Shown here: positions 29,520 to 58,504 of the stretch, piece after piece
How positions within the stretch are numbered: position 1 is the stretch's first letter
Layout: each line of letters begins with the position of its first letter
Assembly: GCA_021648525.1 (NCBI GenBank)
Contig: JAKISP010000010.1
Location: 5,695-69,694, forward strand
DNA from: Gammaproteobacteria bacterium
Lineage (GTDB): Bacteria; Pseudomonadota; Gammaproteobacteria; SZUA-140
Direction: 5' to 3'
DNA length: 64,000 nucleotides
The notes under the pieces: model-generated
The model's database searches: none
The model's input: the letters and a program-made list of their open reading frames with translations, nothing else
What the model was told of the DNA's origin: nothing
Position numbers and translations under genes: made by a program

Positions 29520-30359
29520 ATGACAAGACGTGGTGGGAGAGCTCGTTTAATCGGGCATTTGCTGGGGGGCGTTTTGGTGGGCATGTTATTGCCTGCTATG
29601 AGTGCTGTTGCCGGCGTCTACAACACCAAACACAATCTTGGCAGTAGCGGCCTGAATGCGGCCAGTAATTTTAGTGGTACAGAAGAGATCTGTGTCTTTT
29701 GCCATACCCCGCATGGTGGTGATGCGTCGGCGGCGGTACCCATCTGGAATCGTCAGCTGGATGCGGGCGGTTTTCAAACCTATGATCAGATGGGGACCAC
29801 CACGCTAGATGCGAATGTTGAGCCGATAGGCTCTGTCTCCATTGCCTGCCTCTCCTGTCATGATGGCTCACAGGCGATGGATGCAGTCATTAATGAGCCA
29901 GGTTCGCTGGCTGATAACCCCTCTTTTTCTGCGGGTGACTGGAGCGGCCAGGCGGCGGCAGTTCAGGGGCGAATTGGGCCGGTTGATGTGGTGACAAATT
30001 TAGGTAAGGATCTAACGAACGACCACCCTGTCGGGATTCAATATGCAGGTGGCGGCTATTCAGAGAGCTACCCGGAGGGGCGACCAAGAGTCGATATTGA
30101 CTTTAATCCGCCAACCTCAGAAGTGCTGAGTACGGGGCGGGTGTGGTGGGTAGATAGCCGTGAGCATCCCGAGTCTTCTTTTAGTAAACGAGATTTAAAG
30201 CTTTATTCTCGCGTAGGGACACGCGGTACCAATGTTGGTGAGCTGCAGCCTTATGTGGAATGTGCATCGTGTCATGATCCGCATGTGGACTACAATCCGA
30301 CCTTTTTAAGGATTGACCCCGCTGGAAGCGCGGTTTGCCTGACTTGTCACGCGAAGTAA
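29520..30359 (+). CDS. tetraheme c-type cytochrome with doubled-CXXCH domains (paired_CXXCH family)
   Basis: It has a GGGGGAG RBS and a signal peptide. It has 4 CXXCH motifs (CVFCHTPH, CLSCHDG, CASCHDPH, CLTCHAK). The CHDPH...FLR...CxxCH spacing matches the doubled-CXXCH motif. Confidence 0.8.
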   Translation: MTRRGGRARLIGHLLGGVLVGMLLPAMSAVAGVYNTKHNLGSSGLNAASNFSGTEEICVFCHTPHGGDASAAVPIWNRQLDAGGFQTYDQMGTTTLDANVEPIGSVSIACLSCHDGSQAMDAVINEPGSLADNPSFSAGDWSGQAAAVQGRIGPVDVVTNLGKDLTNDHPVGIQYAGGGYSESYPEGRPRVDIDFNPPTSEVLSTGRVWWVDSREHPESSFSKRDLKLYSRVGTRGTNVGELQPYVECASCHDPHVDYNPTFLRIDPAGSAVCLTCHAK

Positions 30360-31361
30360 GTGATGGTGATGAAGTTGACTGCGCTGTGGATGCTACTGGG
30401 TTTAATGGCTGTGCCAGCCCTGGCCGAGCAAGTGGTGCTTGAACAGCGCCAGTCGGCGCTTGCTGCGGATGTATTTGCGGTGGTGGACGGAAAGGTCATT
30501 ACACAGCAGACATTTGATACCTTTTTGCACGTGGGAAAACGACAGCGGTTTTACCATGGTGATATCCCTGAAGCGGAAGAGGCTGCATTTCGAAAGGAGG
30601 TGGCGCAGCGCTTGATTGATCAGGTGTTGATGCGCTCCGCGGTGAAAGAAAGAGGGGTAGTAGCAGAGCCAGAGCAGGTGAAGGTTCAGTTGGCGGCCAT
30701 TGAGGCGCGCTATGAGTCGCGGCCGCATTGGCGGGCACAGCGAGAAGGATTCCTTGCAGAGTTATTGCCGCAGGTGGAAGAACAGAGTCAGTTCGAGCAG
30801 CTTGAGACGCAGGTGCGGAACGTGGTTGAGGTGAGTGAAACGGCGGTGGTGGCCTATTATCAGGCCAATTCCGAACAATTTACGACGCCGGAGCGACTGC
30901 GTGTTTCGCTGATTTTGTTAGGTGTCGAACCCTGGGCGCAGGCAGCCCAGTGGCAGGCGGCAATGGATGAGGGTGAGCGCTTAATTAAGCGACTGCGACA
31001 GGGCGGAGATTTTGCAGAGATGGCTCGCTTGCATTCAAGTGATGGCTCAGGGCTTAAAGGCGGTGATTTAGGTTACGTTCACAAAGGAATGTTGGCGGAA
31101 GAGGCGCAGCAGGTGCTGGATAAAATGATGCCGGGGGAGGTGTCGTCTGCCATTCGTTTGCTGAAAGGTGTCGCGATATTCAGGGTTGATGAGCGGGTTT
31201 CACCGGTGTTGAATCTGTTTGAACGGGTTGCACCACGCGCACGCGATTTGTATGTGCGTGAGCAGAGCGAAAAGAACTGGCGTGAGTTTATGAGTGAGAT
31301 GCGCAGTAGTGCGGATGTACAGGTAAGAGATCCGTTGCTGTTACCAATTAGCGATGAGTAG
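30360..31361 (+). CDS. periplasmic PpiC-type peptidyl-prolyl cis-trans isomerase (parvulin; SurA/PpiD-like chaperone)
   Basis: It has a signal peptide and a parvulin domain (SLILLGVEPW...GGDFAEMARLHSSDGSGLKGGDLGYVHKGMLAEEAQ). Confidence 0.7.
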   Translation: MMVMKLTALWMLLGLMAVPALAEQVVLEQRQSALAADVFAVVDGKVITQQTFDTFLHVGKRQRFYHGDIPEAEEAAFRKEVAQRLIDQVLMRSAVKERGVVAEPEQVKVQLAAIEARYESRPHWRAQREGFLAELLPQVEEQSQFEQLETQVRNVVEVSETAVVAYYQANSEQFTTPERLRVSLILLGVEPWAQAAQWQAAMDEGERLIKRLRQGGDFAEMARLHSSDGSGLKGGDLGYVHKGMLAEEAQQVLDKMMPGEVSSAIRLLKGVAIFRVDERVSPVLNLFERVAPRARDLYVREQSEKNWREFMSEMRSSADVQVRDPLLLPISDE

Positions 31362-31422
31362 TAGGGGGTTGTTCTGATTATCATGCGGTCGTTGCAAGTC
31401 GTATTTGTGACGTTAGATCAAT

Positions 31423-33231
31423 GTGGGCTGGATGGCTAGGGAGATAGCATCCCGGCGTTTATACCTGTTAGCCTCGGTTGCGATGTTGTGCCCGCTCGCC
31501 GCGCCATTAGCCGCGCCTGTTGATCTGTCGGGTGATGTTGGGTATGCCTACCGTTTGATGAAAGGTGATAATAGTGAAACCGTGAGTAACCAGCTACGAG
31601 GTTCGATACGCGGCAGGTCTTACTTGGGGCAGCCGTGGATTGCGACTGTGGATGTCGGTTTGCGATTTACCGAGGATAGAGCCAATTACAGCCTCACTTC
31701 GAGTGCGCATGTTGATGGTAGTGATACTAAATTGGTGACCGGTGACCTGAGCCTGAATGTGATTCCGCAGAGCCGTTTTCCTATTTCAATCTCCTATCAG
31801 GCCAATGATAGCCGCGTTGATGCTACGCTGAATACCATCACCAGCCCACTCACGGCGGCGGGTAATCGTGAATTCAAGACCCGGCGTTTTTCGATTAGGC
31901 AGAATATTACGGCAGACAGCGCCAGCCGTTTTAAGTGGAACCTGGATTCCAATCAGTGGGATTCCAGTAATAGTGAAAAATACAGTGACTGGTTATTAGG
32001 TGGCAGTGCTGATTTTGGTTTTGATGACCACCGGTTACAGTTGCGAGGGAGTTATAAGTCTATTGACCGGGCCGCTTTAAGTCAGGAGACAACGAATACT
32101 ACGCTGAGTGGTGATCATTTTTATCATAGCCCGACGCGGGCGCTCAGAGTGGACTCTTCTGTGGATTACTACCAGTATCAAACAGAAGGGGTAGCGTCCG
32201 ATATTGTCTTTAGTAACGGTGAGCTTGATACGACCAGTTATCAGGCGTCGAGCTTTGTATTCTGGCGCCCCGTTGACCGTAAGCTGAGCGCGAGTGCAGG
32301 TGTGCGGGTGTTTAATCTGACCAGTGATGCTATTTCAACTAACACCGCAGAGACGACAATTAGTAATGAAACTGAGCTGCTGAGTCTGAATGCGAGTGCG
32401 GCTGGGTTGTATCAATATACAAAAAATGTCCGCTTTGATGGGAATGTGAACTTTTCCGTTAATGATAACGGTGTAGAAGAGAATAATGCGTACCTTGGGC
32501 GATTGGGCGCACTGTTACAGTCCGATATTCATGAAATTCCTTTGGGGATGATGTATCAGTGGCGTGCATCGGCTGCGGCACAGACACAGGGGATAGAAAG
32601 GAATAAGCAGTACCAGACATTGAGTGTTAATCTGGGGCACGATGCGAACCGTAGCTGGCTGAATGATGATAAAAGTTCTGCATTACGGTTTGGTTGGAGT
32701 CAGGCGGTTAATGCTTCGCTTGAAAGTGGTGATGAGGACGCGAACTCACAGCGGTTTGATCATTCGGTCAATGTCGGCTGGGATCGTTATGGTGATCGTG
32801 ACAGTACTTATTCTCAGCTTACTATCTCGGATGCGCGCACCCTGGGTGATCGTGAAAGTGATCAGCAGTTGGTGAATCTACAGCTCACTCGAACGCAAAA
32901 TATGACCCGACGTAGCACGTTAACGGGCAATATTACCGCGCAAAGTGTGCGCCAGAATTTTGCTGGTCAGGATGCGAGTGAGATATCAACAACCACGACT
33001 GGAGCGATAAATTATCAGCTTTCCAGCGTGTTTGGTATTCCTCGTTTTCGTTATGGGTTTGATGTTCGCGTGTCACGAGCATCTCAGGATTCGGGAGTTG
33101 ATCGTGCCGAATGGGAACACCGACTGGATTATAGTGTCGGTCTAGTAGATACTAGGGCCAGTTGGCGCCTGATTGATGCTGGGGAGCAGAATTACACTTT
33201 GGTGTATTTTCAGGTTACACGACGTTTTTGA
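31423..33231 (+). CDS. large outer-membrane beta-barrel protein (602 aa, no heme motifs), a candidate porin component of a porin-cytochrome complex
   Basis: It has a signal peptide (…AMLCPLAAPLAAP). It is rich in alternating polar/aromatic beta-strand segments. It has a C-terminal aromatic end (...YFQVTRRF). It has no CXXCH. Confidence 0.55.
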   Translation: MGWMAREIASRRLYLLASVAMLCPLAAPLAAPVDLSGDVGYAYRLMKGDNSETVSNQLRGSIRGRSYLGQPWIATVDVGLRFTEDRANYSLTSSAHVDGSDTKLVTGDLSLNVIPQSRFPISISYQANDSRVDATLNTITSPLTAAGNREFKTRRFSIRQNITADSASRFKWNLDSNQWDSSNSEKYSDWLLGGSADFGFDDHRLQLRGSYKSIDRAALSQETTNTTLSGDHFYHSPTRALRVDSSVDYYQYQTEGVASDIVFSNGELDTTSYQASSFVFWRPVDRKLSASAGVRVFNLTSDAISTNTAETTISNETELLSLNASAAGLYQYTKNVRFDGNVNFSVNDNGVEENNAYLGRLGALLQSDIHEIPLGMMYQWRASAAAQTQGIERNKQYQTLSVNLGHDANRSWLNDDKSSALRFGWSQAVNASLESGDEDANSQRFDHSVNVGWDRYGDRDSTYSQLTISDARTLGDRESDQQLVNLQLTRTQNMTRRSTLTGNITAQSVRQNFAGQDASEISTTTTGAINYQLSSVFGIPRFRYGFDVRVSRASQDSGVDRAEWEHRLDYSVGLVDTRASWRLIDAGEQNYTLVYFQVTRRF

Positions 33232-33284
33232 CAGGCGTTGTAGGCCTCATATAATAAGAGTAAATTACGAGGAGAGAGTTTGAT

Positions 33285-33722
33285 ATGTCATCTAAGATCA
33301 AGCGTAATGTGTTGAAATCGATGATCATAGGGGTATTAGCGTATATGGGGGCTCTGGGGGCCCCGCAGCCTGCGCAAGCAGAGTATGCTGATATCGTGAT
33401 CAATAACTATGCTGATGCAGCAGGAATGCGCCCTGCCGTTTTTCCGCATTGGTTCCACCGAATTCGTTTCCGTTGCAAGGTTTGTCATACAGACCTGGGT
33501 TTTGCGTTTAAAGCGGGTGGTAATAAAATCGATATGGCTAAAATTATCGATGGCAAGTTCTGCGGAGCCTGTCATAACGGTGAAATTTCATGGTCGGTAG
33601 AAAACTGTGCCATGTGCCATTCCGGGATACCGGGGCAACCAACCCATTTTCACGGCAGTACGGTGCAGCGTCTGATCGCCCCGGCGTATAAGCCACTTCA
33701 AGCCAACGACGCTAAGAAATAA
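33285..33722 (+). CDS. periplasmic triheme cytochrome c7/c3-type (PpcA-like)
   Basis: It is 145 aa with a signal peptide. Heme 1 is FPHWFHRIRFRCKVCH, as in c7 cytochromes, plus CGACHNG and CAMCHSG. Confidence 0.75.
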   Translation: MSSKIKRNVLKSMIIGVLAYMGALGAPQPAQAEYADIVINNYADAAGMRPAVFPHWFHRIRFRCKVCHTDLGFAFKAGGNKIDMAKIIDGKFCGACHNGEISWSVENCAMCHSGIPGQPTHFHGSTVQRLIAPAYKPLQANDAKK

Positions 33723-33736
33723 GAGGAAGGCAAGCA

Positions 33737-34408
33737 ATGAATCATAAAACTAAAGCTGTTTCCTTATCTCTGGCGATGCTGGTGTCTGCCTTTGCGTGGA
33801 ATGCGCAGAGCCATGCAGATGAAGCGACCGGGGTGAAACAATCACCATTGATGTTGGCTGAGGTTTCGTCTGCCAACACCTTTAACGTTAACTTGAAGAA
33901 GCCTAAATCACGCAATCTTCCGCCTGCGGAAGACGGCATTCATGATCCAGAAAATGAAGCAACTCACTCGTTGCAGCATCCACTTGATGCCTATAAAGGG
34001 CTGCCAACAAGTGAATTTGGTAACTATGTTGACTGGGTGAAGGCGCTTGATGAGGGTAAATTGCGTCCGCGTTGGGATCGTTCCGATCCAAACGAAGAGC
34101 CATTTGTGCTCGATCTTGATATTGTACGTCCAGTGAAGGCGTCTGTGCCTGATGTGGTTTTTCCACATCGTCAGCACACCGAGTGGCTTTACTGCTCAAA
34201 TTGCCATCCTGCAATCTTTATTCCTCAGAAGAATGCGAATCAGATCAGTATGTCCGCAATTCTTCTGGGTCAAAAATGTGGCGTCTGCCACGGAAAGGTT
34301 TCTTTTCCAATTGAGACCAAAACCTGTCGTAAGTGTCATTCTAAGCCTAAACCGGCTGGTTGGACGCCTCCTTTGAGTGAAGCAACACTGAAGAATCCCT
34401 GGAAATAA
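33737..34408 (+). CDS. periplasmic c7-type triheme cytochrome with an ~120-aa N-terminal extension (paralog A)
   Basis: It has a signal peptide. It has a DGIHDP motif in the extension. The c7 module is VVFPHRQHTEWLYCSNCHP...IPQK...CGVCHGKVSFP...CRKCH. Confidence 0.75.
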   Translation: MNHKTKAVSLSLAMLVSAFAWNAQSHADEATGVKQSPLMLAEVSSANTFNVNLKKPKSRNLPPAEDGIHDPENEATHSLQHPLDAYKGLPTSEFGNYVDWVKALDEGKLRPRWDRSDPNEEPFVLDLDIVRPVKASVPDVVFPHRQHTEWLYCSNCHPAIFIPQKNANQISMSAILLGQKCGVCHGKVSFPIETKTCRKCHSKPKPAGWTPPLSEATLKNPWK

Positions 34409-34542
34409 CCGACACATTAATCAGAGCTATAGCATATTCTAAGGATTGATAATTAACGCCGGACGAACTCTTCGCCCGGCGTTCCCTATAATGTGTTTCA
34501 GGCAAGATTAATTGTTCAGTTAATTTTAAGGAAGTTGAAACC

Positions 34543-35874
34543 ATGAAAACACCATTTCAAATGCGTTCTCCAGTGCGAGCAGGGATAACCTCTATTCTGC
34601 TTGGCCTGGCAATGCCCAGTTATGCCTTCGATGATGATTGGGGCGATGGCGGAACGCTTGAAATTGAGCGTATTTTTGTGGTCACTGCTCAGGATAAACC
34701 AGATACCCATCCGTTTTATGGTGTCGGCCATAAACGTGGCATGGAGGTGGATGGTGTACCCGGAAAGGAATTAGTGCTGACGCGTGGCAAGAGTTATGCC
34801 TTTCGAGTGGATACAGATATAAAGCATGATTTCTATCTGTCAACCGAGTCGGTAGGCTGGGGAGCCTCAGTGCTGGCAGAGGGGGTTGAAGGTAATTTTA
34901 CCTATGACGGTATTGTTACCATCGAAACGGATAACAAAACACCCAAAGAATTTTTTTATGCTTGTCGTAACCATAAATACATGGGCGGCAAGATTCATAT
35001 TGCGAATGCAGGTGAAGAAGATAAGGTAGAGCTTGGCAAGATCGATATCTCGAAATTGCCACCAACAAAGCCACCTAAACCTGTTTCAGAACGTACGGTT
35101 AAGCAAAAAATTAGCTTTGCAGACATGTTTGTTAGCCTGTCATCAGCGGCGAAACGCGTCGCTAATAGTGATAATGATAAGGCAAAAATCGCTTACACCG
35201 ATGCACATGATCGCCTCAATAAAGCGAAAATAGCGCTGGATGCGGATGATCTTGTGCTGGCGCTGTTCGAAGTGGATGAATCACTGCGCTCGATGAGTAC
35301 TGCGGCACGTCTGGTGCCAACGCCCGAGCAGCTAGAAGAGCAGAAACGTATATTTGTAGCCTTACTGGAAGAGGTGAGGTCATTTGAGAAGTCATATAAA
35401 CGGAATGTTGAGCGTCTGGAGAAGAGTGGCCGAACCGATGTGCGTGATGACCTGAGTTATGCTGAATTAGAGAGTACGATAGAAGCTGCGGAAAGCCTTT
35501 ATGAAATGAAGGAAATTGTTGCTGCGAATCGTTTGATGAAAAATTTACAGAAAGCGATTACATCAGCATTGGGTAAGATGCTTGACAACACCACAGTGGT
35601 ATATGATAAAAACTTTGAGACGCCACTGGAGGAGTTTGAATACGAGCTTGCGCGCTACCTTAGCTATGAAGAGTTGATCCCGCTAGCGATCGAGCAGAAA
35701 CGTCCTTCTAAACGAGCGATAGAGTTGATGGATCAGTTTGTTGTTAAAGGTAAGGACATTTATCTACAATCGAAACCGGTGATTGAAGGAAAGGATTATA
35801 AAAACGCGATTTTGATGTTGCAAGGCGCAACATTTCAGTTGAAACGTGCATTACGGATGGTAGGAGTGAGATAG
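34543..35874 (+). CDS. cupredoxin (amicyanin-like type-1 copper) domain fused to a long alpha-helical C-terminal domain, novel fusion
   Basis: It has a signal peptide. Its copper-ligand pattern YACRNHKYMGGKIHI (C-x2-H-x2-M-G-K) closely mirrors amicyanin HCTPHPFMRGKVVV, with a candidate upstream His (KHDFYL). A Pro/Lys linker is followed by about 280 aa of helical heptad-like sequence. Confidence 0.6.
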   Translation: MKTPFQMRSPVRAGITSILLGLAMPSYAFDDDWGDGGTLEIERIFVVTAQDKPDTHPFYGVGHKRGMEVDGVPGKELVLTRGKSYAFRVDTDIKHDFYLSTESVGWGASVLAEGVEGNFTYDGIVTIETDNKTPKEFFYACRNHKYMGGKIHIANAGEEDKVELGKIDISKLPPTKPPKPVSERTVKQKISFADMFVSLSSAAKRVANSDNDKAKIAYTDAHDRLNKAKIALDADDLVLALFEVDESLRSMSTAARLVPTPEQLEEQKRIFVALLEEVRSFEKSYKRNVERLEKSGRTDVRDDLSYAELESTIEAAESLYEMKEIVAANRLMKNLQKAITSALGKMLDNTTVVYDKNFETPLEEFEYELARYLSYEELIPLAIEQKRPSKRAIELMDQFVVKGKDIYLQSKPVIEGKDYKNAILMLQGATFQLKRALRMVGVR

Positions 35875-35875
35875 C

Positions 35876-36526
35876 ATGACGCAAGCTATGAGCGAACGAT
35901 CACAAAAAATGCTGCCAATGAATGGTTGGTGGTGTGTGCTCGTGCTGATGGCCTGTTTTTGTTTTAGTACGTCGAGCCATGCGGCTGAGTCAGCGTTTAC
36001 GGATGCTGCTAACCCTTCGGAACCAGGCATCACGGCCGTCTGGTCTCGCGGCCTGCATTTTCAGACTGAAGGTGAAGTGGTGCCACTGGCTGAAGATGGT
36101 ATTCACGATCCTACTAATGATGCGGTCAAATTGTTACAGGAACCCTATGAAGCGATGGCTGAATTTCCACGGGATTCTCAGGGCATCATTGACTGGGTGC
36201 AGACACTACGCCAGGGATTGATTGATCCGCGGATGAGCCTGACTGGTGAAGAAGAGATGTTTCCGGTCGATTTTGATATTATTTTTAAAAATACGGGTTC
36301 AATGCCTCATGTCCGCTTTCCGCATTTAGAACATACTGAGTGGCTGACCTGTGCTAACTGTCATCCATTGATCTTTATTCCTCAAAAAGGCGGAAATCCT
36401 GTCTCCATGTCGGCAATTATTCAGGGTGAATATTGCGGTGTGTGTCATGGTAAGGTCGCCTTTCCACCAACGATGAATTGCGGCCGATGTCACTCCGTTC
36501 CAAATCAAGCCAACTTGCGGCGCTAA
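35876..36526 (+). CDS. periplasmic c7-type triheme cytochrome with an N-terminal extension (paralog B of 33737..34408)
   Basis: It has the same architecture as paralog A. It has LAEDGIHDPTND and the c7 module VRFPHLEHTEWLTCANCHP...IPQK...CGVCHGKVAFP...CGRCH. Confidence 0.75.
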   Translation: MTQAMSERSQKMLPMNGWWCVLVLMACFCFSTSSHAAESAFTDAANPSEPGITAVWSRGLHFQTEGEVVPLAEDGIHDPTNDAVKLLQEPYEAMAEFPRDSQGIIDWVQTLRQGLIDPRMSLTGEEEMFPVDFDIIFKNTGSMPHVRFPHLEHTEWLTCANCHPLIFIPQKGGNPVSMSAIIQGEYCGVCHGKVAFPPTMNCGRCHSVPNQANLRR

Positions 36527-37746
36527 TCGCACTGACATCCTCCCTTCTAATTGGGGGGTGTTCAATGCTGTCAAAAGACCCGGCTTCGAGCGCCACTCAT
36601 GCATCAGTGCAACAGTCACTCTATGGCTGGCGAGAGATTGAAGGTGGGGTCGAGTCAGCATGGACAGATAATTCGGCTTTATCAGCTATTACTGGTCAGC
36701 GATACGTTCGTTTTGTTCGGCCGGTGCAGGTGGCGGCGCGCGGAAACTTTGTCTTTGTTGTTGATGCTGGCCCAGAATTGCTTTATCGCTATGATCTTAG
36801 CCGTAATGAGTTGAAGGTTGTATTGAATCTCAAGGGGGTTATGGCTGGTGAAGTCACGGATCTTTATGTCTACCCGGATCACTCATTTCTCCTGGTAGAC
36901 CCTGATTCCGCACGTGTGCTGCACTTTAGTCGCAATGGGCGTCTAATTCGTATTTTCCAGGATGGTTTAAATCTGATTCGCCCTGTTGCTGTCACCTATG
37001 ACGAGGAGATGGGGCGCGTATTGATTGCCGATGGCTCCAGTGATGACGTGCTGGTGTTTTCTACAACAGGGCAATTACAGGGCGTGATTGGCACACGTGG
37101 TGTTCAGGAAGGGCAGTTTTTAAATATTACGGCGATGACTTCTGGCGCTGACGGTATTTATGTCACGGCACGCCTTGGTCATCGATTACAGGTAATGGGG
37201 CGTGATGGTTCACATGTGAAATCATTTCAGTCTGATGCAGTGGTGTTTCCGTTGGCTGTTGCAGTCGATAGAAGCGGCAATACATTTGTGAGTGACTATC
37301 TTGATAACTCGATTAAGGTTTTTCAGGATGGCCTGTTTCTTGAGAGTATTGCTGGATCTGGTTTTTCACCTGGTCGTTTTAAGCGGATTAGCGACTTGTG
37401 GTACGACGAAGGTTTTCTCTATGCTGTCGATAGCCTTAACGGGCGGATTCAGGTATTAAGAGTTGAGGTGATTGAACCTGAAATAGAAACGTTTGTTGAA
37501 GATGAAATTGACCTGGAAACAGCACCTCCTGCAGCTGCTGAGGTGTTACCGTTAGGGGAGCCAGGTGAAGAGCTGGAACTGGAAACTGCGCAGAATGAAC
37601 TGGAGGAATTGCAGGAGGAACTTGAAGCTGCTCGCTTAGAATTAGACGCTGAAGCTGACAGGCAGCCGGCCGAAGCCCCGCTTACTTCCGAGCCTCTTCC
37701 TGTTGAACCTGGTCAAGTGATTGATTCACCTGGTAGCGAAATTTAG
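36478..37746 (+). CDS. NHL-repeat beta-propeller lipoprotein with an acidic C-terminal tail
   Basis: It has a lipobox (LLIGGC). Multiple NHL-like blades are present (VFVVDAG...LYRYD, VLIADGSSDDVLVF, IYVTARLGHRLQV, TFVSDYLDNSIKVF, LYAVDSLNGRIQVL). The C-terminus is an E/L-rich acidic tail. Confidence 0.65.
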   Translation: MRPMSLRSKSSQLAALIALTSSLLIGGCSMLSKDPASSATHASVQQSLYGWREIEGGVESAWTDNSALSAITGQRYVRFVRPVQVAARGNFVFVVDAGPELLYRYDLSRNELKVVLNLKGVMAGEVTDLYVYPDHSFLLVDPDSARVLHFSRNGRLIRIFQDGLNLIRPVAVTYDEEMGRVLIADGSSDDVLVFSTTGQLQGVIGTRGVQEGQFLNITAMTSGADGIYVTARLGHRLQVMGRDGSHVKSFQSDAVVFPLAVAVDRSGNTFVSDYLDNSIKVFQDGLFLESIAGSGFSPGRFKRISDLWYDEGFLYAVDSLNGRIQVLRVEVIEPEIETFVEDEIDLETAPPAAAEVLPLGEPGEELELETAQNELEELQEELEAARLELDAEADRQPAEAPLTSEPLPVEPGQVIDSPGSEI

Positions 37747-37760
37747 AAATAAACATAATC

Positions 37761-38837
37761 ATGATGCTTAACTCTCGCCAAGGGCTGGTTGTGCTGTTAT
37801 GCCTGATTTTTTCAGGCTGCGCCTCCGCACCTGCTGTTCTGAAATATGACCTTGAAGAGGCGGCTGGGACAGTCTGGCCAGCCACCCCGGAGGTGGCACG
37901 TTATCAATACGTGGGGCAGCTAACCGGTGAAGAAAATTTCATCCATTCGAGTGATGATGTCTCAATGGGGCGTAAGGTTTTTGAATGGATTGTGGGTGTT
38001 GTGACCGGAGAAGAAGCCCCAACGGTTTTACAGCGTCCGCAATCTGGTACGGTAGATCGCGATGGACGTATTTATGTCACGGATGTGAGTCGTGCGGCAG
38101 TATATGTGTTTGATGGGCAAGGCGGTCGACTGGATGTGTGGGAGATGGCGGGTGAGGCGTTGCGATTTAAAACACCGATCGGCATAGCGGTGGTTGAAAA
38201 AGCGGAAGGTGTACGTGAAATTCTGGTCGTTGATGCGGATCTTAAACGTGTGGTGGTACTAGATCAGAAAGGTATCCCGCAGCGCCACTTTGGTAGTGAT
38301 GTATTGACGCGGCCAACTGGACTGGCGCGGGATCCAGAGAGCGGCCAGCTCTATGTGGCGGATACTCACGGGCATGACATCAAGGTGTTTAGCGCAGATG
38401 GTGTATTGCTTAAAACGCTTGGAGTCAGTGCGAGGGGAGAAGGTCCGGGGCAATTTAACTCACCTACTCATCTTACTTTTGCGGCTGGCCAACTGTATGT
38501 GACCGATACACTTAATTCACGAGTGAAGATTTTTAGCGCGGATGGAGAGCTTGTGCGTATTTTTGGACGGCGCGGGATTTTTGTGGGTGACCTGCCGCGC
38601 CCCAAAGGGCTGGCGGTTGATAAAGACGGCAATATCTATGTGGTGGAATCCTATTATGATCATCTGTTAGTATTCAATGGTGAAGGGAACCTGCTTTTGC
38701 CGATTGGCGGCTCGGGTAGCGGCGTAGGGCAGTTTTACCTGCCCGCAGGTGTCTGGACTGACCACCGTGACAGGATATATGTGGCTGATAGTTTCAATGG
38801 TCGGGTCGTGATATTACAATATTTGGGGGGGGCATGA
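37761..38837 (+). CDS. NHL-repeat six-bladed beta-propeller lipoprotein
   Basis: It has a lipobox (IFSGCAS). It has six NHL blades (RIYVTDVSRAAVYVFD, LYVADTHGHDIKVF, LYVTDTLNSRVKIF, IYVVESYYDHLLVF, IYVADSFNGRVVIL...). Confidence 0.7.
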   Translation: MMLNSRQGLVVLLCLIFSGCASAPAVLKYDLEEAAGTVWPATPEVARYQYVGQLTGEENFIHSSDDVSMGRKVFEWIVGVVTGEEAPTVLQRPQSGTVDRDGRIYVTDVSRAAVYVFDGQGGRLDVWEMAGEALRFKTPIGIAVVEKAEGVREILVVDADLKRVVVLDQKGIPQRHFGSDVLTRPTGLARDPESGQLYVADTHGHDIKVFSADGVLLKTLGVSARGEGPGQFNSPTHLTFAAGQLYVTDTLNSRVKIFSADGELVRIFGRRGIFVGDLPRPKGLAVDKDGNIYVVESYYDHLLVFNGEGNLLLPIGGSGSGVGQFYLPAGVWTDHRDRIYVADSFNGRVVILQYLGGA

Positions 38838-41509
38838 GAGGTCATTTTACAGGCACGTTATTGATCCTGTTTGCTGTTGTATCAATGGCAGAGTCAGCTT
38901 ATGCTGCACGCATCTCAGATATCGCGAACACAAAACATAACTTTTCGGCGACAGTTCCACCGAGTGAGACGTCTCGTACGGTTCAGGCAGTCTCTGAATC
39001 TCAAATTTGTGCGTTTTGCCATACACCGCATGGGGCGACTAACGAAGCGCGTACGCCACTTTGGAATCGCACGCTTTCGACCGCAACTTATGCACCCTAC
39101 AACTCAAGCTCGTTGGATGCAATAGATCTGGGGCAGCCAGAGGGAAAGTCTAAACTCTGTTTGTCATGCCATGACGGTACGCTGGCGATCGGATCTGTTA
39201 ATGTATTAAATCGGGTAGAACTCAAAAAAGAGGGACGTGACATTCCTTTTCAGGGGACACGCCCTGATGGCAGTATTCCAGATGGACATGGTGAGTCAAC
39301 TGGATTTACGCGCCGCATTGGTGTCGACTTAACCAATGATCACCCGATTTCATTTACTTTTGATAGTGCTCAGGCCGCGCGTGATGGTGAGCTCTATAAC
39401 CCAGAAGTTGAATTGCATATTAGAGAACGTTCGCCAGGAAGCGGCCCGCCTTTCCCGCAGTCACAACATACAGGTGTAGCGGGTTATTTACCGTTGGAAG
39501 ATGGCCAGGTGGAGTGTATCACCTGTCATGACCCGCATATTCGTTCAGATGATCCGAACGAAGGTAACATTAAATTCTTACGTGTTAACCGAATGCAACG
39601 CCACGCGGAGCCTGTTGACGGTCAGTTTAATGCGGACAACGATATTATCTGTATTTCTTGCCATGATAAAGAAGGATGGGTTGGGTCTGCGCATGCTAAT
39701 CGTCTCGCGGCAGATGAAACTTATCAACTGCCTGCTGGTAATCTACGCGAATTCCCGCGAGATACTCAGGTGTGGCAAGCGGCATGTTTGAATTGTCATG
39801 ACCCGCACACGGTTGAAGGTTCACGCCGGATTTTACGTGAGGGAACCGATGGGCCGACCAGGATTGATCCCGTGACCGGCGGTAAGTTTAAACAGGGCGG
39901 TAATCACGCAATTGAAGAAGTCTGTTTTGCCTGCCACTCACCCGATGGTGATGTGTTAGTTGGGCAGGGTAGTGTTGGTTTCCAGGTGCCGGATGTTAAG
40001 ACTGATTTTGTGACACCAGGCAACACCCATATGCCACTGCAGAGTGCAGATCAACGCGCTGGTCGTGAAGTGCATTCGATTGGTAGCGGCAGAGATGGTG
40101 TGGAAGGAAAAACGCGAGGCCAGGATTTTGTTGAATCCCCAGAGATGATGGGTAAGGGGAATTTGATGAATCGTCACGTAGAATGTACCGACTGCCATAA
40201 TCCTCATCGTGTCGCTAAAAATCGCATGTTCAATGCAAACAACGCGATTCCAGATGTAGAGGGTACGCATCCACATACACCCACTGATATTGCGGCTAAT
40301 GGTTTAACCATGCACACCAACCTTGCTTCAGGGGTGTTAAGGGGGATTACTGGCGTTGAGCCTGTGTATGGATCCACTGCTTTTGGTAGCGAGCCTGTGA
40401 GTTTTACCCTTAAACGTGGAGACCCCGGAACGGGTGGGAGTACTGAGGTTGGCGCCCCTTATGTCACGCGTGAATATCAAGTCTGTCTTAAGTGTCATTC
40501 AAACTATACTTACGATACACCGCCCCCTTTAGGTTTGCACGGTGGGAGTACCGCGCCGGGTACGAATGCGATGTTTGAATACACCAATCAGGCGATGGAG
40601 TATCAAGCGCCTCCTTCCCATATGGGCGAGGTGAGTTCATTTCCAGCACCGGGATGGGGGCCATTTGTTGGTGTCGATGGCGAGGGAAACAGCGTTGATT
40701 TTGAAAATAACAATCATCGCTCATGGCACCCTGTGATGGATAGAACTGGACGTACTGCGACAGAACGGCTTGCCGACCCTGATGTCTGGCGTTCACCGTT
40801 TAATATCCCTGGCGCATTAGGGGAGCAAACGATGTACTGCACCGACTGCCACGGCAATAACACCGCGAGTGATACCGTTATTCCAAATGGTGGCGTTAAT
40901 GGTGAAGTCTGGGGGCCTCATGGCTCGCAAAATAATTTTCTATTAAAAGGACCCTGGGATGATAATACCGGGCGGCAGCAGCCTGAGGGGCTGTGTTTCA
41001 GGTGTCACGAATTTGATCAATATGGCCGAGACTCAGGAATCGCGACCTCCTTAACCCCGCCCGTGCTTGCTAGTGGATTTAAAGTAATCAATAACGTGGC
41101 TTTTGGTTGTATTAATTTTAAGCTGGTTAATCTGCACATTGGACATAATAAATCCATTGCCCCGGGCGTGACTAATTTCCGTTGCACGCTTTGTCATATT
41201 GCGGTGCCTCATGGTTGGAAAAATAAAGTATTCCTCGCGAATCTAAATGATGTTGGGCTAGAGGCGAGCCTCGCGCCTGGCACGCAGGTGAGATATTTAG
41301 GGTTTGCGGGTAATACGAATAAAGCGAATGGAACCGGACGCTACTACGCTGGCCCGTACTACAATGGTGCCGCATTAAAAGTCAATACCTTTTCACGCAG
41401 TGGCGCCTGGCTTGAGACAGGTTGTGGCTCATCTGGAAACCCTGGTAATGGTGAACTTGGGTTTGGCTGGATGACGAGTCTTGACGAAACATGCGCATCA
41501 TTACCATAA
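38834..41509 (+). CDS. large multiheme c-type cytochrome (891 aa, 11 CXXCH), doubled-CXXCH family, candidate outer-membrane or extracellular cytochrome
   Basis: Its start overlaps the NHL gene stop (ATGA). It has a signal peptide. There are 11 CXXCH motifs (CAFCHTPH, CLSCHDG, CITCHDPH, CISCHDK, CLNCHDPH, CFACHSPD, CTDCHNPH, CLKCHSN, CTDCHGNN, CFRCHEF, CTLCHIA). The N-terminal module TKHNFS...ICAFCHTPHG...PLWNR parallels the tetraheme protein at 29520. Confidence 0.8.
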   Translation: MRGHFTGTLLILFAVVSMAESAYAARISDIANTKHNFSATVPPSETSRTVQAVSESQICAFCHTPHGATNEARTPLWNRTLSTATYAPYNSSSLDAIDLGQPEGKSKLCLSCHDGTLAIGSVNVLNRVELKKEGRDIPFQGTRPDGSIPDGHGESTGFTRRIGVDLTNDHPISFTFDSAQAARDGELYNPEVELHIRERSPGSGPPFPQSQHTGVAGYLPLEDGQVECITCHDPHIRSDDPNEGNIKFLRVNRMQRHAEPVDGQFNADNDIICISCHDKEGWVGSAHANRLAADETYQLPAGNLREFPRDTQVWQAACLNCHDPHTVEGSRRILREGTDGPTRIDPVTGGKFKQGGNHAIEEVCFACHSPDGDVLVGQGSVGFQVPDVKTDFVTPGNTHMPLQSADQRAGREVHSIGSGRDGVEGKTRGQDFVESPEMMGKGNLMNRHVECTDCHNPHRVAKNRMFNANNAIPDVEGTHPHTPTDIAANGLTMHTNLASGVLRGITGVEPVYGSTAFGSEPVSFTLKRGDPGTGGSTEVGAPYVTREYQVCLKCHSNYTYDTPPPLGLHGGSTAPGTNAMFEYTNQAMEYQAPPSHMGEVSSFPAPGWGPFVGVDGEGNSVDFENNNHRSWHPVMDRTGRTATERLADPDVWRSPFNIPGALGEQTMYCTDCHGNNTASDTVIPNGGVNGEVWGPHGSQNNFLLKGPWDDNTGRQQPEGLCFRCHEFDQYGRDSGIATSLTPPVLASGFKVINNVAFGCINFKLVNLHIGHNKSIAPGVTNFRCTLCHIAVPHGWKNKVFLANLNDVGLEASLAPGTQVRYLGFAGNTNKANGTGRYYAGPYYNGAALKVNTFSRSGAWLETGCGSSGNPGNGELGFGWMTSLDETCASLP

Positions 41510-42543
41510 GCGGAGTGCTGCGCCGTCTGGCATCAACAAAGCTAACATTATTATGGATGTTACTGTTAGCCGTTGGTGCAGCGCTGAGTTACGATAATCC
41601 TGAGGATACTTCGATCTGGGTCTTGATCGTACCGATGTCACTGCTGGCGCTTAACCTGATCGCTGCAATTATCAGTAACCCCCGCATCAATCGACGTGGC
41701 GGTCTGCTAGTATTCCATCTGGGCTTGTTAAGTATTGTTGTGCTGGCTGCGATTGGTCGCCTGACCCATATGGATGGACGTGTTGAAATTATCTCTGGCG
41801 CTGAGTTCTCACCTGAAATAGTCACCGATATACATAGCGGTCCGCTGCATAGCGGTGCACTGGCTGATGTGAATTTTGTACAGGGGCCATTTACAGTTGA
41901 GTATCGTCCTCAGATGATGCGAGGCCTTACCTATAGTCAGGTTGCCCTGCCTGATAATAAAGGTGGGTGGCGAGAAGCAGTGGTGGGTGATGACCGCCCG
42001 CTCCTGGTTGAGGGATACCGTTTCTATACCACTTTCAATAAAGGGTTCGCGCCAATATTAAGCTGGACGAGTCATGATGGACGGGTGGCTGAAACTGGCG
42101 CTGTTCATATGCCCTCATACCCCTTGTTTGATTTTAAACAGTCAAATAGCTGGACACCTCAGGGAGGCGATGAAATTAAATTCTGGTTGCAGTTAGAAAC
42201 CGGCCTTACCACTGAAGAGGCGTGGGTGCTCGATGGACGACGTGCGACAGGTACGCTGGTAGTTAATGTATCGGGTGAACGTACGGAATTATTACCGGGA
42301 GAGAGTGTCAAAATGGCGGGTGGTACATTACGTTACGAGCAGCTTACGACCTGGATGGGCTACAAATTATTTTATGACCCCACATTACAGTGGATGTTTC
42401 TCGCCGCATTTATCACGATTGCTGGGCTTGCCGCCCATTTTTGGCAAAAACTGGCGGCAGAACCACTGGGACTGGATGATGCGCTACGACATGAAAAACA
42501 GCATGCAAAAGGATCGGTGCCTGCATCGCGTTCGGCAGCGTAG
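41491..42543 (+). CDS. System II cytochrome c biogenesis protein ResB/Ccs1 (CcsB) family
   Basis: It has an N-terminal TM pair, a large periplasmic domain and a C-terminal TM (WMGYKLFYDPTLQWMFLAAFITIAGL). It lies immediately upstream of a CcsA/ResC gene. It is shorter (350 aa) than canonical ResB. Confidence 0.6.
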   Translation: MRIITISGVLRRLASTKLTLLWMLLLAVGAALSYDNPEDTSIWVLIVPMSLLALNLIAAIISNPRINRRGGLLVFHLGLLSIVVLAAIGRLTHMDGRVEIISGAEFSPEIVTDIHSGPLHSGALADVNFVQGPFTVEYRPQMMRGLTYSQVALPDNKGGWREAVVGDDRPLLVEGYRFYTTFNKGFAPILSWTSHDGRVAETGAVHMPSYPLFDFKQSNSWTPQGGDEIKFWLQLETGLTTEEAWVLDGRRATGTLVVNVSGERTELLPGESVKMAGGTLRYEQLTTWMGYKLFYDPTLQWMFLAAFITIAGLAAHFWQKLAAEPLGLDDALRHEKQHAKGSVPASRSAA

Positions 42544-42564
42544 CGGTGTAAGGAGATTGGAACG

Positions 42565-43425
42565 ATGACAGAATTACCATGGTTATACGCAGGCATCGCA
42601 GCCTATGCATTTGCAGCTATCGCAGCGCTGGTGGGTGTGGCACGATTAGGCACAACGATGGCGACTGTTGGCGGGGTCAGTAGCGTCAGTGAAAGCCAGC
42701 GCAATAATGAAAGACTGGTGCTTTTATTGATGACCACGAGTGTGATTTTACTGACGATCACGCTAGCTGATCGCTGGCTGCGCATTGGCCATGGCCCGTT
42801 TGTAAACCTGTTTGAGTTATTAATCAGCCAGCTCTTTAGCCTTGGTCTGGTTTATACCATCGCTTACTGGCGCATCCCTGTATTGCGTACCACATCCGTG
42901 GTGGTGTTGCCGCTGATGGGTGTGTTAGCTGTGTGGGTCATGGTGCTTGAACCGTCAGATAGTGTATTCCCGCCCACTTATCACAACCCATGGCTATGGG
43001 CACATGTTGGCTTTGGTAAATTTTTCCTCGCCTTTTGTTTAATCGGCACCGGGTTAGCTGGCGTGATCTTACTACGTAGTTATGGCTTTTTTAAAAACCT
43101 GTTTCGTCATCTGCCTGATAATGTCATCCTCGATAAACTGGCGTGGCGATTTATGTTGCTTGCGCTGGTGTTTGATAGCCTGATGTTATGTGCCGGTGCG
43201 GTTTGGGCACAGGATGCATGGGGACGCTACTGGGCATGGGATGCGCTGGAAACATCATCATTCCTTAACTGGCTGCTATTAGGTGCCTCAATACATGCGC
43301 GCACAACCTATAATGTTCCTATCCGGTTAGGTGCAGTTCTGATTATCAGTGTTCTTGTTTTTGCATTTGTCACCTACTTTGGCACCCCTTTCTATAGCGA
43401 AGCGGCACACAAAGGGGTGATATAG
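42565..43425 (+). CDS. cytochrome c-type biogenesis protein CcsA/ResC (heme-handling WWD-domain protein)
   Basis: It is 286 aa with multiple TM helices. It has the Trp-rich WWD motif WGRYWAWDALETSSFLNWLLL and conserved His residues. Confidence 0.8.
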   Translation: MTELPWLYAGIAAYAFAAIAALVGVARLGTTMATVGGVSSVSESQRNNERLVLLLMTTSVILLTITLADRWLRIGHGPFVNLFELLISQLFSLGLVYTIAYWRIPVLRTTSVVVLPLMGVLAVWVMVLEPSDSVFPPTYHNPWLWAHVGFGKFFLAFCLIGTGLAGVILLRSYGFFKNLFRHLPDNVILDKLAWRFMLLALVFDSLMLCAGAVWAQDAWGRYWAWDALETSSFLNWLLLGASIHARTTYNVPIRLGAVLIISVLVFAFVTYFGTPFYSEAAHKGVI

Positions 43426-43433
43426 CGGAGTAG

Positions 43434-58498: not shown

Positions 58499-58504
58499 CT
58501 TATT

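What the first reader, a model, noticed from the sequence alone, without database searches (positions are those of the whole stretch)
29520..41509. Two cytochromes share an unusual N-terminal heme module (TKHN..S...IC.FCHTPHG...P.WNR), one tetraheme and one 11-heme
The 279-aa tetraheme and the 891-aa undecaheme proteins start with closely similar segments (GVYNTKHNLGSS...ICVFCHTPHGGDASAAVPIWNRQL versus IANTKHNFSATV...ICAFCHTPHGATNEARTPLWNRTL). Both use repeated CHDPH...FLR...CxxCH doubled-heme units. The large protein looks like a modular expansion of the small one. This suggests an inner periplasmic partner and an outer elongated wire version of the same family. The 11-heme protein is long enough to span or extend beyond the outer membrane.
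Basis: seen in the sequence. Interest (0 to 1): 0.7.

Follow-up and report, generated by a model that had tools for sequence, protein, structure and literature searches.

The report
Uet cytochromes share OmcE nanowire domain
The two cytochromes are UetA and UetJ of an already described gene cluster for exchanging electrons with minerals or electrodes, and the piece they share is the four-heme domain of OmcE, a protein that forms conductive "nanowire" filaments in Geobacter.

Summary
The whole 279-aa tetraheme protein aligns with residues 1-279 of the 891-aa undecaheme protein (BLASTP E 5e-22; profile-profile E 1e-42). The 4 and 11 heme motifs are conserved in hundreds of homologues.

The locus is not new. 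Genes 29520-44219 match, gene for gene, the uetABCDEFGHIJ-ccsBA-TPR cluster of Tenderiales. By its published description this is probably also the occ cluster of "Ca. Dechloromonas occultata", though I did not compare sequences. The two proteins are UetA and UetJ.

The shared module is the OmcE tetraheme domain. UetA-family and UetJ-family profiles hit only the two solved OmcE nanowire subunits in the PDB (7TFS, 9YUQ; E 1e-21 to 1e-34). All eight heme-ligating histidines are conserved. UetI and UetH are homologues of the beta-propeller lipoprotein in the Geobacter omcE cluster.

UetJ is an OmcE-like domain plus a distinct seven-heme extension, not repeats of the small protein. The "small periplasmic partner" reading is not supported, because UetA's relatives are extracellular filament subunits.

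Most likely, UetA forms an OmcE-type extracellular wire. UetJ may dock on it as a base or tip adaptor. Both steps are inferred, not shown. No paper in the held library links Uet/Occ to OmcE.

The parts
29520..30359 (+). uetA: 279-aa tetraheme c-type cytochrome, a full-length OmcE homologue with a signal peptide. The conserved N-terminal His (TKH) lies a few residues after the likely cleavage site, and the protein ends at CxxCH-x-K.
   Evidence: 4 CxxCH; profile against PDB hits 9yuq_N at E 8.6e-34 and 7tfs_A at E 7.5e-32; 32% identity to G. sulfurreducens OmcE over the full length, E 2.8e-31; the C-terminus is strictly conserved.
30360..31361 (+). uetB: SurA-like PpiC-type peptidyl-prolyl isomerase (periplasmic chaperone).
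   Evidence: Rotamase and SurA_N_3 domains. Its position matches UetB, and synteny holds across loci.
31423..33231 (+). uetC: 602-aa putative outer-membrane beta-barrel that ends in Phe.
   Evidence: No Pfam or NCBIfam hit. It is syntenic with UetC in Tenderia and other genomes. Eddie et al. predicted 28 strands for the orthologue. No similarity to the Geobacter omcE-cluster barrel was detectable.
33285..33722 (+). uetD: c7-type triheme cytochrome.
   Evidence: TIGR04257, 63 bits against a cut-off of 40.
33737..34408 (+). uetE: c7-type triheme cytochrome.
34543..35874 (+). uetF: 443-aa protein with an N-terminal cupredoxin-like type-1 copper loop (C141-RN-H-KY-M).
   Evidence: motif. No family hit. 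Named a cupredoxin.
35876..36526 (+). uetG: c7-type triheme cytochrome.
   Evidence: hhalign against Geobacter PpcB gives probability 96.6%.
36478..37746 (+). uetH: NHL beta-propeller protein with a lipoprotein-type signal (LLIGGC). It overlaps uetG by 49 nt.
   Evidence: hhalign against the Geobacter omcE-cluster NHL lipoprotein gives probability 99.9%, E 8e-36.
37761..38837 (+). uetI: NHL beta-propeller lipoprotein (lipobox IFSGC). It is a homologue of the beta-propeller lipoprotein encoded next to omcE in Geobacter.
   Evidence: NHL, 90 bits; 31% identity over the full length, E 2e-44; probability 100%, E 3e-49.
38834..39670 (+). uetJ, residues 1-279: signal peptide plus an OmcE-like tetraheme domain (hemes 1-4). 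It contains TKH, CAFCHTPH, PLWNR, CLSCHDG, NDHP, CITCHDPH, FLR and CISCHDK.
   Evidence: the profile hits 7tfs_A at E 5.7e-28 and 9yuq_N at E 1.7e-21 through positions 12-227; 30% identity to OmcE, E 4e-25; all eight His are 100% conserved.
39671..41509 (+). uetJ, residues 280-891: C-terminal extension with seven more CxxCH hemes. It starts with the invariant linker xGWxxSAH(287)AN and includes the invariant pair C864/C887.
   Evidence: It holds no further OmcE-module copy and has no solved homologue by sequence or by fold. The AF2 model has pLDDT 70.1 and pTM 0.76.
41491..42543 (+). ResB-like (CcsB) System II cytochrome c maturation protein. It overlaps uetJ by 19 nt.
   Evidence: PF05140; synteny.
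42565..43425 (+). CcsA heme-handling protein (System II cytochrome c maturation).
   Evidence: PF01578. BLASTP against Geobacter CcsA gives E 3e-15.
43434..44219 (+). TPR protein (NrfG-like), conserved downstream of ccsA in uet clusters.
   Evidence: synteny.
44234..44884 (+). DsbA-like thioredoxin-fold protein. Membership of the module is uncertain.
   Evidence: PF01323. In this window it sits where Tenderia has batDBA.

Best explanation
The two ORFs are UetA and UetJ of the uet extracellular electron transfer cluster. By its published description this is probably also the occ cluster (OccP), though I did not compare sequences. The window comes from an uncultured gammaproteobacterium.

Shown here:
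- The gene order uetA-B-C-D-E-F-G-H-I-J-resB-ccsA-TPR is present in the window.
- The shared "unusual heme module" is the OmcE tetraheme domain.
- UetA is an OmcE homologue from signal peptide to C-terminal Lys.
- UetJ is one OmcE-like domain fused, exactly at the point where OmcE and UetA end, to a different seven-heme region.
- UetH and UetI are homologues of the beta-propeller lipoprotein of the Geobacter omcE nanowire cluster.

Inferred mechanism:
1. The cytochromes are exported by Sec and loaded with heme by the dedicated CcsBA pair.
2. The SurA-like UetB and the lipoproteins UetH/UetI assist passage through or assembly at the large outer-membrane barrel UetC.
3. UetA polymerises head-to-tail outside the cell as OmcE does, with a histidine of one subunit ligating heme 2 of the next. 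This gives an insulated chain of hemes.
4. UetJ uses the same domain to dock on one filament end. Its seven extra hemes would link the wire either to the barrel and the periplasmic c7 trihemes (UetD/E/G, plus the cupredoxin-like UetF) or to the mineral or electrode.
5. The chain could run in either direction: uptake from Fe(II) or cathodes, or reduction of Mn(III).
For: Identity of the cluster:
- ORFs and domains match the published uet gene list one for one: tetraheme, PPIase, barrel, triheme, triheme, cupredoxin, triheme, NHL, NHL, undecaheme, CcsBA, TPR.
- The same order recurs in about 40 genome loci, including Candidatus Tenderia MAGs.

OmcE link:
- The only solved structures hit by the UetA and UetJ profiles are the OmcE filament subunits 7TFS and 9YUQ, at E 1e-21 to 1e-34. 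The UetA profile covers them along essentially the whole chain in two stretches; the UetJ profile covers them through heme 3.
- Pairwise identity to Geobacter OmcE is 32% (UetA) and 30% (UetJ N-terminal domain), both over the full length of OmcE.
- The UetA, OmcE and UetJ-N groups are mutually about 32-33% identical. All four CxxCH motifs and all four distal His are 100% conserved in 92 sequences.
- 120/120 UetA and 120/120 OmcE homologues end at CxxCH-x-K. UetJ continues from there.

Cluster kinship with omcE:
- The Geobacter omcE locus holds resB, ccsA, two multiheme cytochromes, an NHL lipoprotein, omcE, a 752-aa barrel and a c7 triheme gene.
- UetI and UetH match the NHL lipoprotein at E 2e-44 and 2e-10 (probabilities 100% and 99.9%).
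- Petersen et al. use exactly this context (large barrel plus beta-propeller lipoprotein) as their criterion for nanowire-competent OmcE homologues, and they report such homologues in Pseudomonadota.

Other support:
- Inter-subunit His ligation of heme 2 in OmcE is reported.
- Eddie et al. predicted UetA and UetJ to be extracellular and raised polymer formation as a possibility.
- Occ proteins were detected in a Mn(III)-reducing enrichment.
Against: - No experiment shows that any UetA polymerises. At 32% identity, homology to OmcE does not prove filament formation.
- UetC shows no detectable similarity to the Geobacter barrel.
- My AF2 model of UetA was poor (pLDDT 47.8). The OmcE-like part of the UetJ model is the least confident region (pLDDT 42-65).
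- The docking role of UetJ rests only on domain homology and on where the extension begins. I could not read which histidine OmcE donates in trans, nor which filament end the UetJ extension would block.
- Some genomes carry UetJ paralogues without neighbouring uetA-C, so UetJ may work without a UetA filament.
- The physiological role of cytochrome filaments is itself disputed (title and abstract of PMC11077965, listed).
Confidence: 0.55

Rival explanations
1. This is a classical porin-cytochrome conduit of the MtrCAB/PioAB type, as drawn by Eddie et al. One of UetJ or UetA sits inside the UetC barrel and carries electrons across the outer membrane. The other is a monomeric surface partner. Nothing polymerises, and the shared domain only reflects common ancestry by gene duplication.
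For: - The cluster encodes a large barrel plus multiheme cytochromes plus periplasmic carriers.
- The describing authors proposed this model, with a 28-strand barrel and a bar-shaped UetJ.
- An 11-heme linear chain would be about 9 nm, longer than the roughly 8 nm implied for a 10-heme chain at the OmcE spacing of 34 A per 4 hemes.
- UetJ paralogues occur without uetA nearby.
Against: - UetJ scores far below the cut-offs of the DmsE/MtrA family (38.5 bits against 192) and of OmcA/MtrC (16 against 209). UetC hits no MtrB/PioB model.
- UetJ has about 80 residues per heme, against about 33 for MtrA (my own knowledge: 333 aa, 10 hemes). That is bulky for threading through a barrel.
- The closest solved relatives of both cytochromes are filament subunits, and the accessory lipoproteins are shared with the omcE nanowire cluster.
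Confidence: 0.3
2. The 279-aa tetraheme protein is a soluble periplasmic shuttle, and the 891-aa protein is an outer elongated wire built by repeating the small protein's module.
For: - The small protein is small and has a Sec signal peptide.
- Both proteins share the module.
Against: - The small protein's solved homologues are extracellular filament subunits.
- It was predicted to be extracellular.
- The cluster already has three c7-type triheme proteins of the periplasmic-carrier kind.
- UetJ 281-891 contains no further copy of the module.
Confidence: 0.1
3. The similarity is an artefact of CxxCH-rich composition and does not reflect homology.
For: Short CxxCH-centred matches occur all over the large protein in BLASTP, with E 0.007-10.
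Against: - The alignment is collinear over about 270 residues, with E 5e-22 under composition-based statistics and E 1e-42 for profiles.
- Conserved non-heme motifs (PLWNR, SxxCxSCHDG, LxxxHP, FLR, terminal K) are shared in 92 sequences.
Confidence: 0.01

Closest known systems
uetABCDEFGHIJ cluster of 'Candidatus Tenderia electrophaga' / Tenderiales (Eddie et al. 2022, bioRxiv 10.1101/2022.05.06.490989; mSphere)
   Same: - Same genes in the same order: tetraheme UetA, PPIase, barrel, two trihemes, cupredoxin, triheme, two NHL proteins, undecaheme UetJ, CcsBA, TPR.
- Tenderia MAG loci are syntenic with the window.
   Different: - The window's UetJ is only about 54% identical to the UetJ of Tenderia MAGs. 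Its closest relatives are other uncultured Gammaproteobacteria, at 82-89%.
- A DsbA-like gene follows the TPR gene where Tenderia has batDBA.
- In the preprint text held here, the paper does not mention OmcE (0 occurrences). In the passages I read, it does not state that UetA equals the N-terminal domain of UetJ.
[quoted passage not shown] 2020, bioRxiv 10.1101/695007)
   Same: - The published description fits: an extracellular undecaheme of about 900 aa, NHL-repeat proteins and many c-type cytochromes in one cluster.
- An uncultured Dechloromonas sp. MAG (L065) has a syntenic uet locus.
   Different: - It was described in a metal-reducing (Mn(III)) context and as a 19-gene cluster.
- I did not compare OccP directly with the window. 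The equivalence is inferred from the description and from the Dechloromonas locus.
OmcE cytochrome nanowire of Geobacter sulfurreducens (PDB 7TFS) and Desulfuromonas soudanensis (PDB 9YUQ), with the omcE gene cluster
   Same: - Full-length homology of UetA and of UetJ residues 1-279, at 30-32% identity.
- Four CxxCH motifs plus four distal His are conserved.
- The C-terminus is identical in form, CxxCH-x-K.
- The neighbourhood also has an NHL beta-propeller lipoprotein (a homologue), a large barrel, multiheme cytochromes, a c7 triheme and resB/ccsA.
   Different: - UetA is about 40 residues longer (median 277 against 235 aa).
- The uet cluster adds a PPIase, a cupredoxin-like protein, three trihemes and a second NHL protein.
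- The barrels are not detectably similar.
- There are no glycosyltransferase genes next to the cluster.
- The uet cluster contains a second OmcE-domain protein (UetJ). Petersen et al. report no such protein in omcE operons.
- Polymerisation is shown for OmcE only.
MtrCAB / MtoAB / PioAB porin-cytochrome conduits
   Same: The parts list is alike: an outer-membrane barrel, multiheme cytochromes, periplasmic carriers, and a role in extracellular electron transfer in both directions.
   Different: There is no family-level sequence match. DmsE/MtrA, OmcA/MtrC and GSU2203 models score 16-38 bits against cut-offs of 192-325, and UetC matches no MtrB/PioB model.
OmcS hexaheme nanowire (PDB 6EF8)
   Same: Reported to share heme packing and inter-subunit His ligation with OmcE.
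   Different: The UetA and UetJ profiles produce no sequence hit to OmcS at E <= 1.

Membership tests
Uet (undecaheme electron transfer) cluster | Gene order tetraheme - PPIase - barrel - triheme - triheme - cupredoxin - triheme - NHL - NHL - undecaheme, followed by ccsBA and a TPR gene | tested here: met
   against the published list. tblastn synteny holds across about 40 loci, including Tenderia MAGs.
Uet (undecaheme electron transfer) cluster | UetJ has 11 CxxCH motifs and UetA has 4 | tested here: met
   The counts are conserved in homologues.
Uet (undecaheme electron transfer) cluster | Role in extracellular electron uptake or transfer | not testable with these tools
   Only literature evidence is available: expression in a biocathode community and in a Mn(III)-reducing enrichment.
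OmcE tetraheme nanowire family | Full-length sequence homology to solved OmcE subunits | tested here: met
   The UetA profile hits 9yuq_N at E 8.6e-34 and 7tfs_A at E 7.5e-32. The UetJ profile hits them at E 5.7e-28 and 1.7e-21. BLASTP gives 32% and 30% identity. hhalign probability is 99.9%.
OmcE tetraheme nanowire family | Four CxxCH motifs plus four conserved distal histidines (eight His in all) | tested here: met
   H38/62/65/114/169/252/255/277 in UetA and H35/63/66/113/170/232/235/277 in UetJ are 100% conserved across 92 UetA, OmcE and UetJ-N sequences.
OmcE tetraheme nanowire family | Genomic context used by Petersen et al. for nanowire-competent homologues: a nearby large outer-membrane beta-barrel and a beta-propeller lipoprotein | tested here: met
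   UetC (602 aa) lies one gene downstream of uetA. UetH and UetI have lipoboxes and are homologous to the Geobacter cluster's NHL lipoprotein. Caveat: the barrels themselves are not detectably similar.
OmcE tetraheme nanowire family | Free C-terminus at CxxCH-x-K (true of all 120 OmcE homologues sampled) | tested here: met
   Met for UetA, in 120/120 homologues and in the window protein. Not met for UetJ, which continues for 612 residues.
OmcE tetraheme nanowire family | Head-to-tail polymerisation with a histidine of one subunit ligating heme 2 of the next; extracellular location | not testable with these tools
   This needs heme-aware multimer modelling or cryo-EM. The AF2 monomer models were of low confidence in this domain and no coordinates are returned.
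Paired CXXCH domain (TIGR01905 / PF09699) | Score above the curated cut-off | tested here: met
   UetA scores 36.6 and 46.7 bits; UetJ scores 57.1 and 92.4 bits. The cut-offs are 25.2 and 20.6.
MtrA/DmsE decaheme family (TIGR03508) and OmcA/MtrC family (TIGR03507) | Score above the curated cut-off | tested here: not met
   Scores are 29-38.5 bits against 192.2, and 16-21 bits against 209.3.
MtrB/PioB outer-membrane barrel family | UetC matches the family model | tested here: not met
   UetC has no NCBIfam or Pfam hit at E <= 0.01.

The most novel reading that the evidence does not exclude
The widespread Uet/Occ cluster of iron-oxidising, electroautotrophic and metal-reducing Proteobacteria encodes an OmcE-type cytochrome nanowire, a polymer of UetA. 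UetJ is its dedicated terminal subunit. Its N-terminal OmcE-like domain would plug into one filament end through the normal subunit interface. Its seven-heme extension starts exactly where a normal subunit ends and carries an invariant ninth histidine (H287). That extension would occupy the place of the next subunit and connect the wire to the barrel and periplasmic trihemes, or to the substrate. UetJ would then be the initiator, anchor or stopper protein that Petersen et al. looked for and did not find in Desulfuromonadia omcE operons.
Probability: 0.2. Interest if true: 0.8.

Novelty: already known. Interest (0 to 1): 0.42.

Why it matters
**The cluster.** It is known, but only from genomics, transcriptomics and proteomics. 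No component has been studied biochemically.

**What the OmcE link adds.**
- Recognising that UetA, and the first 279 residues of UetJ, belong to the OmcE nanowire family ties two separate literatures together: Uet/Occ of iron oxidisers and cathode-oxidising bacteria, and the Geobacter cytochrome nanowires.
- It predicts that OmcE-type wires are made by many aerobic or microaerophilic Proteobacteria. More than 580 species genomes carry a UetJ relative.
- It offers a concrete candidate for a long-open question in the nanowire field: what starts, anchors or caps a cytochrome filament.

**Testability.** The idea can be tested in cultured carriers such as Sphaerotilus mobilis DSM 10617, Hydrogenophaga sp. 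RWCD_12 and Aromatoleum evansii KB740.

**If UetA does not polymerise.** The finding is then simply a correct description of two paralogous domains in a known cluster.

Tried and rejected
1. AF2 of UetA with a 31-sequence alignment gave pLDDT 47.8 and was unusable.
3. UetC and UetF profiles against the Geobacter 752-aa barrel and the 500-aa protein showed no similarity.
4. The UetJ C-terminal region against the two Geobacter omcE-cluster cytochromes (9 and 8 hemes) gave only generic paired-CXXCH matches, with probabilities 72-95% over about 100 columns. I did not count this as orthology.
5. I searched for further copies of the OmcE module inside UetJ and found none.
6. I could not read the OmcE structure paper or the mSphere version of the Uet paper. 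The identity of the trans-donated histidine in OmcE therefore stayed unknown. I found only that heme 2 is the acceptor.
8. The representative-library search with UetJ 1-285 listed mostly UetJ-type proteins and fragments. It showed the module is always N-terminal but revealed no new architecture.
9. I considered and rejected the idea that the similarity is a compositional artefact.
10. I did not attempt a mirror-tree or co-evolution test of UetA against UetJ. Shared operon history would give a correlation regardless of contact.

Full report
**1. The observation**

The two ORFs are exactly where the finding places them: 29520-30359 (+, 279 aa) and 38834-41509 (+, 891 aa). They carry 4 and 11 CxxCH motifs and no variant motifs.

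- BLASTP with composition-based statistics aligns residues 10-279 of the small protein with 1-279 of the large one. All four heme motifs are in register, with E 5e-22 and 24% identity.
- I collected homologues of each protein, aligned 31 of each and compared the profiles. The result was probability 100% and E 1.2e-42, with UetA 31-279 matching UetJ 28-279.
- The similarity therefore covers the whole small protein, not just an N-terminal stretch.
- TIGR01905 and PF09699 pass their curated cut-offs in both proteins.
- The heme counts are not errors. 120/120 homologues of the small protein have 4 motifs and 117/120 homologues of the large one have 11.
- In 80 genome loci from Gamma-, Beta- and Alphaproteobacteria, Magnetococcales, Nitrospinota and others, nearly all complete homologues of the large protein have 11 motifs. 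Every one has an N-terminal module that hits the small-protein HMM at E 1e-12 to 1e-37.

**2. What the locus is**

All the genes from 29520 to 44219 are on the + strand, several with overlapping stop and start codons. In order they encode:

- the tetraheme protein;
- a SurA-like PpiC isomerase;
- a 602-aa protein with no family hit that ends in Phe;
- two c7-type triheme cytochromes;
- a 443-aa protein with a C-x2-H-x2-M copper loop;
- a third triheme cytochrome;
- two NHL beta-propeller proteins with lipoboxes;
- the undecaheme protein;
- ResB-like and CcsA proteins, and a TPR protein.

This is, gene for gene, the uetABCDEFGHIJ-ccsAB-nrfG cluster described for "Ca. Tenderia electrophaga" and the Tenderiales. 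The same cluster has been reported in Gallionella and Leptothrix. The occ cluster of "Ca. Dechloromonas occultata", with its roughly 100-kDa undecaheme OccP and NHL proteins, fits the same description. An uncultured Dechloromonas MAG has a syntenic locus.

tblastn with the window's proteins shows the same order in about 40 loci, including Tenderia MAGs. The window's UetJ is 82-89% identical to proteins of uncultured Gammaproteobacteria and about 54% identical to Tenderia's. The exact protein is not on record. The two proteins are therefore UetA and UetJ, and the cluster is already known, though only from omics.

**3. What the shared module is**

A profile of the UetA family, searched against all PDB sequences, hits only two entries, along essentially the whole chain in two stretches:

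- 9YUQ (E 8.6e-34), the Desulfuromonas soudanensis OmcE filament bundle;
- 7TFS (E 7.5e-32), the Geobacter sulfurreducens OmcE nanowire.

The UetJ profile hits the same two through its first about 230 positions, at E 5.7e-28 and 1.7e-21.

I rebuilt the OmcE sequence from those alignments, collected its homologues and fetched the Geobacter locus.

- UetA is 32% identical to OmcE over the full length (E 2.8e-31).
- UetJ residues 11-279 are 30% identical (E 4e-25).
- In a joint alignment of 92 sequences the three groups (UetA, OmcE, UetJ N-domain) are mutually about 32-33% identical and 47-64% identical within groups.
- 100% conserved are the four CxxCH motifs, the four other histidines (TKH, TPH, NDH, DPH/KVH), W76/N77/R78 of the P-x-W-N-R motif, S-x2-C-x-SCH, F-L-R and the final K. 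A few neighbouring positions of these motifs reach only 98-99%.
- All 120 UetA and all 120 OmcE homologues end two residues after the last heme motif, at x-K. UetJ has the same x-K and then continues with the conserved linker xGW(V/A)(G/D)SAHAN, which contains an invariant histidine, H287.

The rest of UetJ (281-891, seven hemes) holds no second copy of the module. Only one generic paired-CXXCH unit matches, weakly. UetJ is thus an OmcE-like domain fused to something else.

**4. The neighbourhood points the same way**

The Geobacter omcE locus reads: ppcB (c7 triheme), resB, ccsA, a 9-heme cytochrome, an 8-heme cytochrome, an NHL lipoprotein, omcE, a 752-aa barrel, then glycosyltransferases.

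- UetI matches the NHL lipoprotein at 31% identity over the full length (E 2e-44; profile probability 100%). UetH matches it too, at probability 99.9%.
- The barrels are not detectably similar.
- Petersen et al. define nanowire-competent OmcE homologues by exactly this context: a nearby large barrel and a beta-propeller lipoprotein. They report such homologues in Pseudomonadota.
- They also ask what initiates or stops the filament. They suggest a protein resembling OmcE with an extra histidine or more exposed hemes, and state that no such candidate is encoded in omcE operons.
- The uet cluster does contain such a protein: UetJ.

**5. Mechanism**

Shown:
- the homologies above;
- the dedicated System II maturation genes;
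- signal peptides and lipoboxes, read directly from the sequences.

From the literature:
- UetA and UetJ were predicted to be extracellular, and UetJ is highly expressed on cathodes.
- Occ proteins were detected during Mn(III) reduction.

Inferred:
- UetA forms an OmcE-type wire outside the cell.
- UetB, UetC and UetH/I assist export or anchoring.
- UetD/E/G, and perhaps UetF, carry electrons across the periplasm.
- UetJ docks on a filament end by its OmcE-like domain and extends the heme chain by seven hemes. Eleven hemes in a line would be roughly 9 nm.

I rate the identification near certain, UetA polymerisation at about even odds, and the adaptor role of UetJ at about one in five.

**6. 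Limits and failures**

- AF2 of UetA was poor.
- The UetJ model was moderate (pLDDT 70.1, pTM 0.76) and weakest in the OmcE-like domain.
- I could not obtain the OmcE structure paper, so I do not know which histidine is donated in trans or which end UetJ's extension would block.
- UetJ paralogues occur in tandem or without uetA-C nearby in some genomes. That fits a stand-alone function as well.
- The main rival is the MtrCAB-like conduit model of the describing authors. The family models do not support membership of Mtr families, but the working principle cannot be excluded.

**7. Comparison and novelty**

- No paper in the held library links Uet or Occ with OmcE. The Tenderiales preprint does not mention OmcE.
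- The representative-library search shows the module family is large: 2189 clusters at E <= 1e-10. In long proteins the module always sits at the N-terminus.
- The added value is the assignment of the shared module to the OmcE nanowire family, with the testable idea that follows from it.

Noticed in passing
window 29520-30359; proteins P0121-P0360: Every one of 120 UetA and 120 OmcE homologues ends exactly two residues after the last heme motif, as CxxCH-x-K. Such a strict C-terminus suggests the terminal Lys or carboxylate has a structural role, possibly at the filament interface.
   Followed up: partly
window 39671-39700 (UetJ residues 280-289): Directly after the OmcE-like domain, UetJ has a conserved linker, xGW(V/A)(G/D)SAHAN, containing an invariant histidine (H287). 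This makes nine invariant His around four hemes. UetJ as a whole has 16 invariant non-motif His for 11 hemes.
   Followed up: partly
window 41108-41509 (UetJ C759, C864, C887) and 44234-44884: UetJ has three cysteines outside heme motifs. C864 and C887 are invariant in 121 sequences, which suggests a disulfide. C759 is conserved in at least 90%. A DsbA-like gene follows the TPR gene, where Tenderia has batDBA.
   Followed up: no
window 34543-35874 (UetF): UetF carries C141-R-N-H-K-Y-M, a short type-1 copper loop of the amicyanin kind, with a candidate upstream His (IKHDF). The remaining roughly 280 residues have no family hit.
   Followed up: partly
L021, L041, L070, L077, L078 (tandem UetJ); L015 (tandem UetA); L040 (second UetA-like gene); L027, L029, L036, L060, L062 (UetJ alone); L042, L056, L064: Some genomes have two UetJ genes in tandem or two UetA genes. 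Others have UetJ with no other uet gene within 10 kb. One Thiohalomonadales MAG has three UetJ loci. Colwellia, Halopseudomonas and an Enterobacterales MAG have a reduced cluster (trihemes, NHL, UetJ, ResB) with no uetA-C within 10 kb upstream.
   Followed up: no
window 26921-27976 and 28076-29329: Two porin-like genes lie immediately upstream of uetA. The second hits Porin_4/Porin_1. The first has no family hit but looks like a beta-barrel. I did not check whether they belong to the module.
   Followed up: no
window 36478-36526, 38834-38837, 41491-41509: Neighbouring genes overlap: uetG/uetH by 49 nt, uetI/uetJ by 4 nt (ATGA) and uetJ/resB by 19 nt. uetB starts at the base after the uetA stop codon. 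This suggests a single operon with translational coupling.
   Followed up: no
window 1-64000: GC skew is positive in every 2-kb window (0.06 to 0.34), and most long ORFs are on the + strand. The window probably lies within one replichore on the leading strand.
   Followed up: no
window 4396-6240 (-), 18335-19657 (+), 57068-62179: Other genes of possible envelope relevance are a VWA-domain protein, a TraF_2-family outer-membrane protein, and a CusS sensor kinase with OEP and CusB-like efflux components.
   Followed up: no
[not shown]
   Followed up: yes
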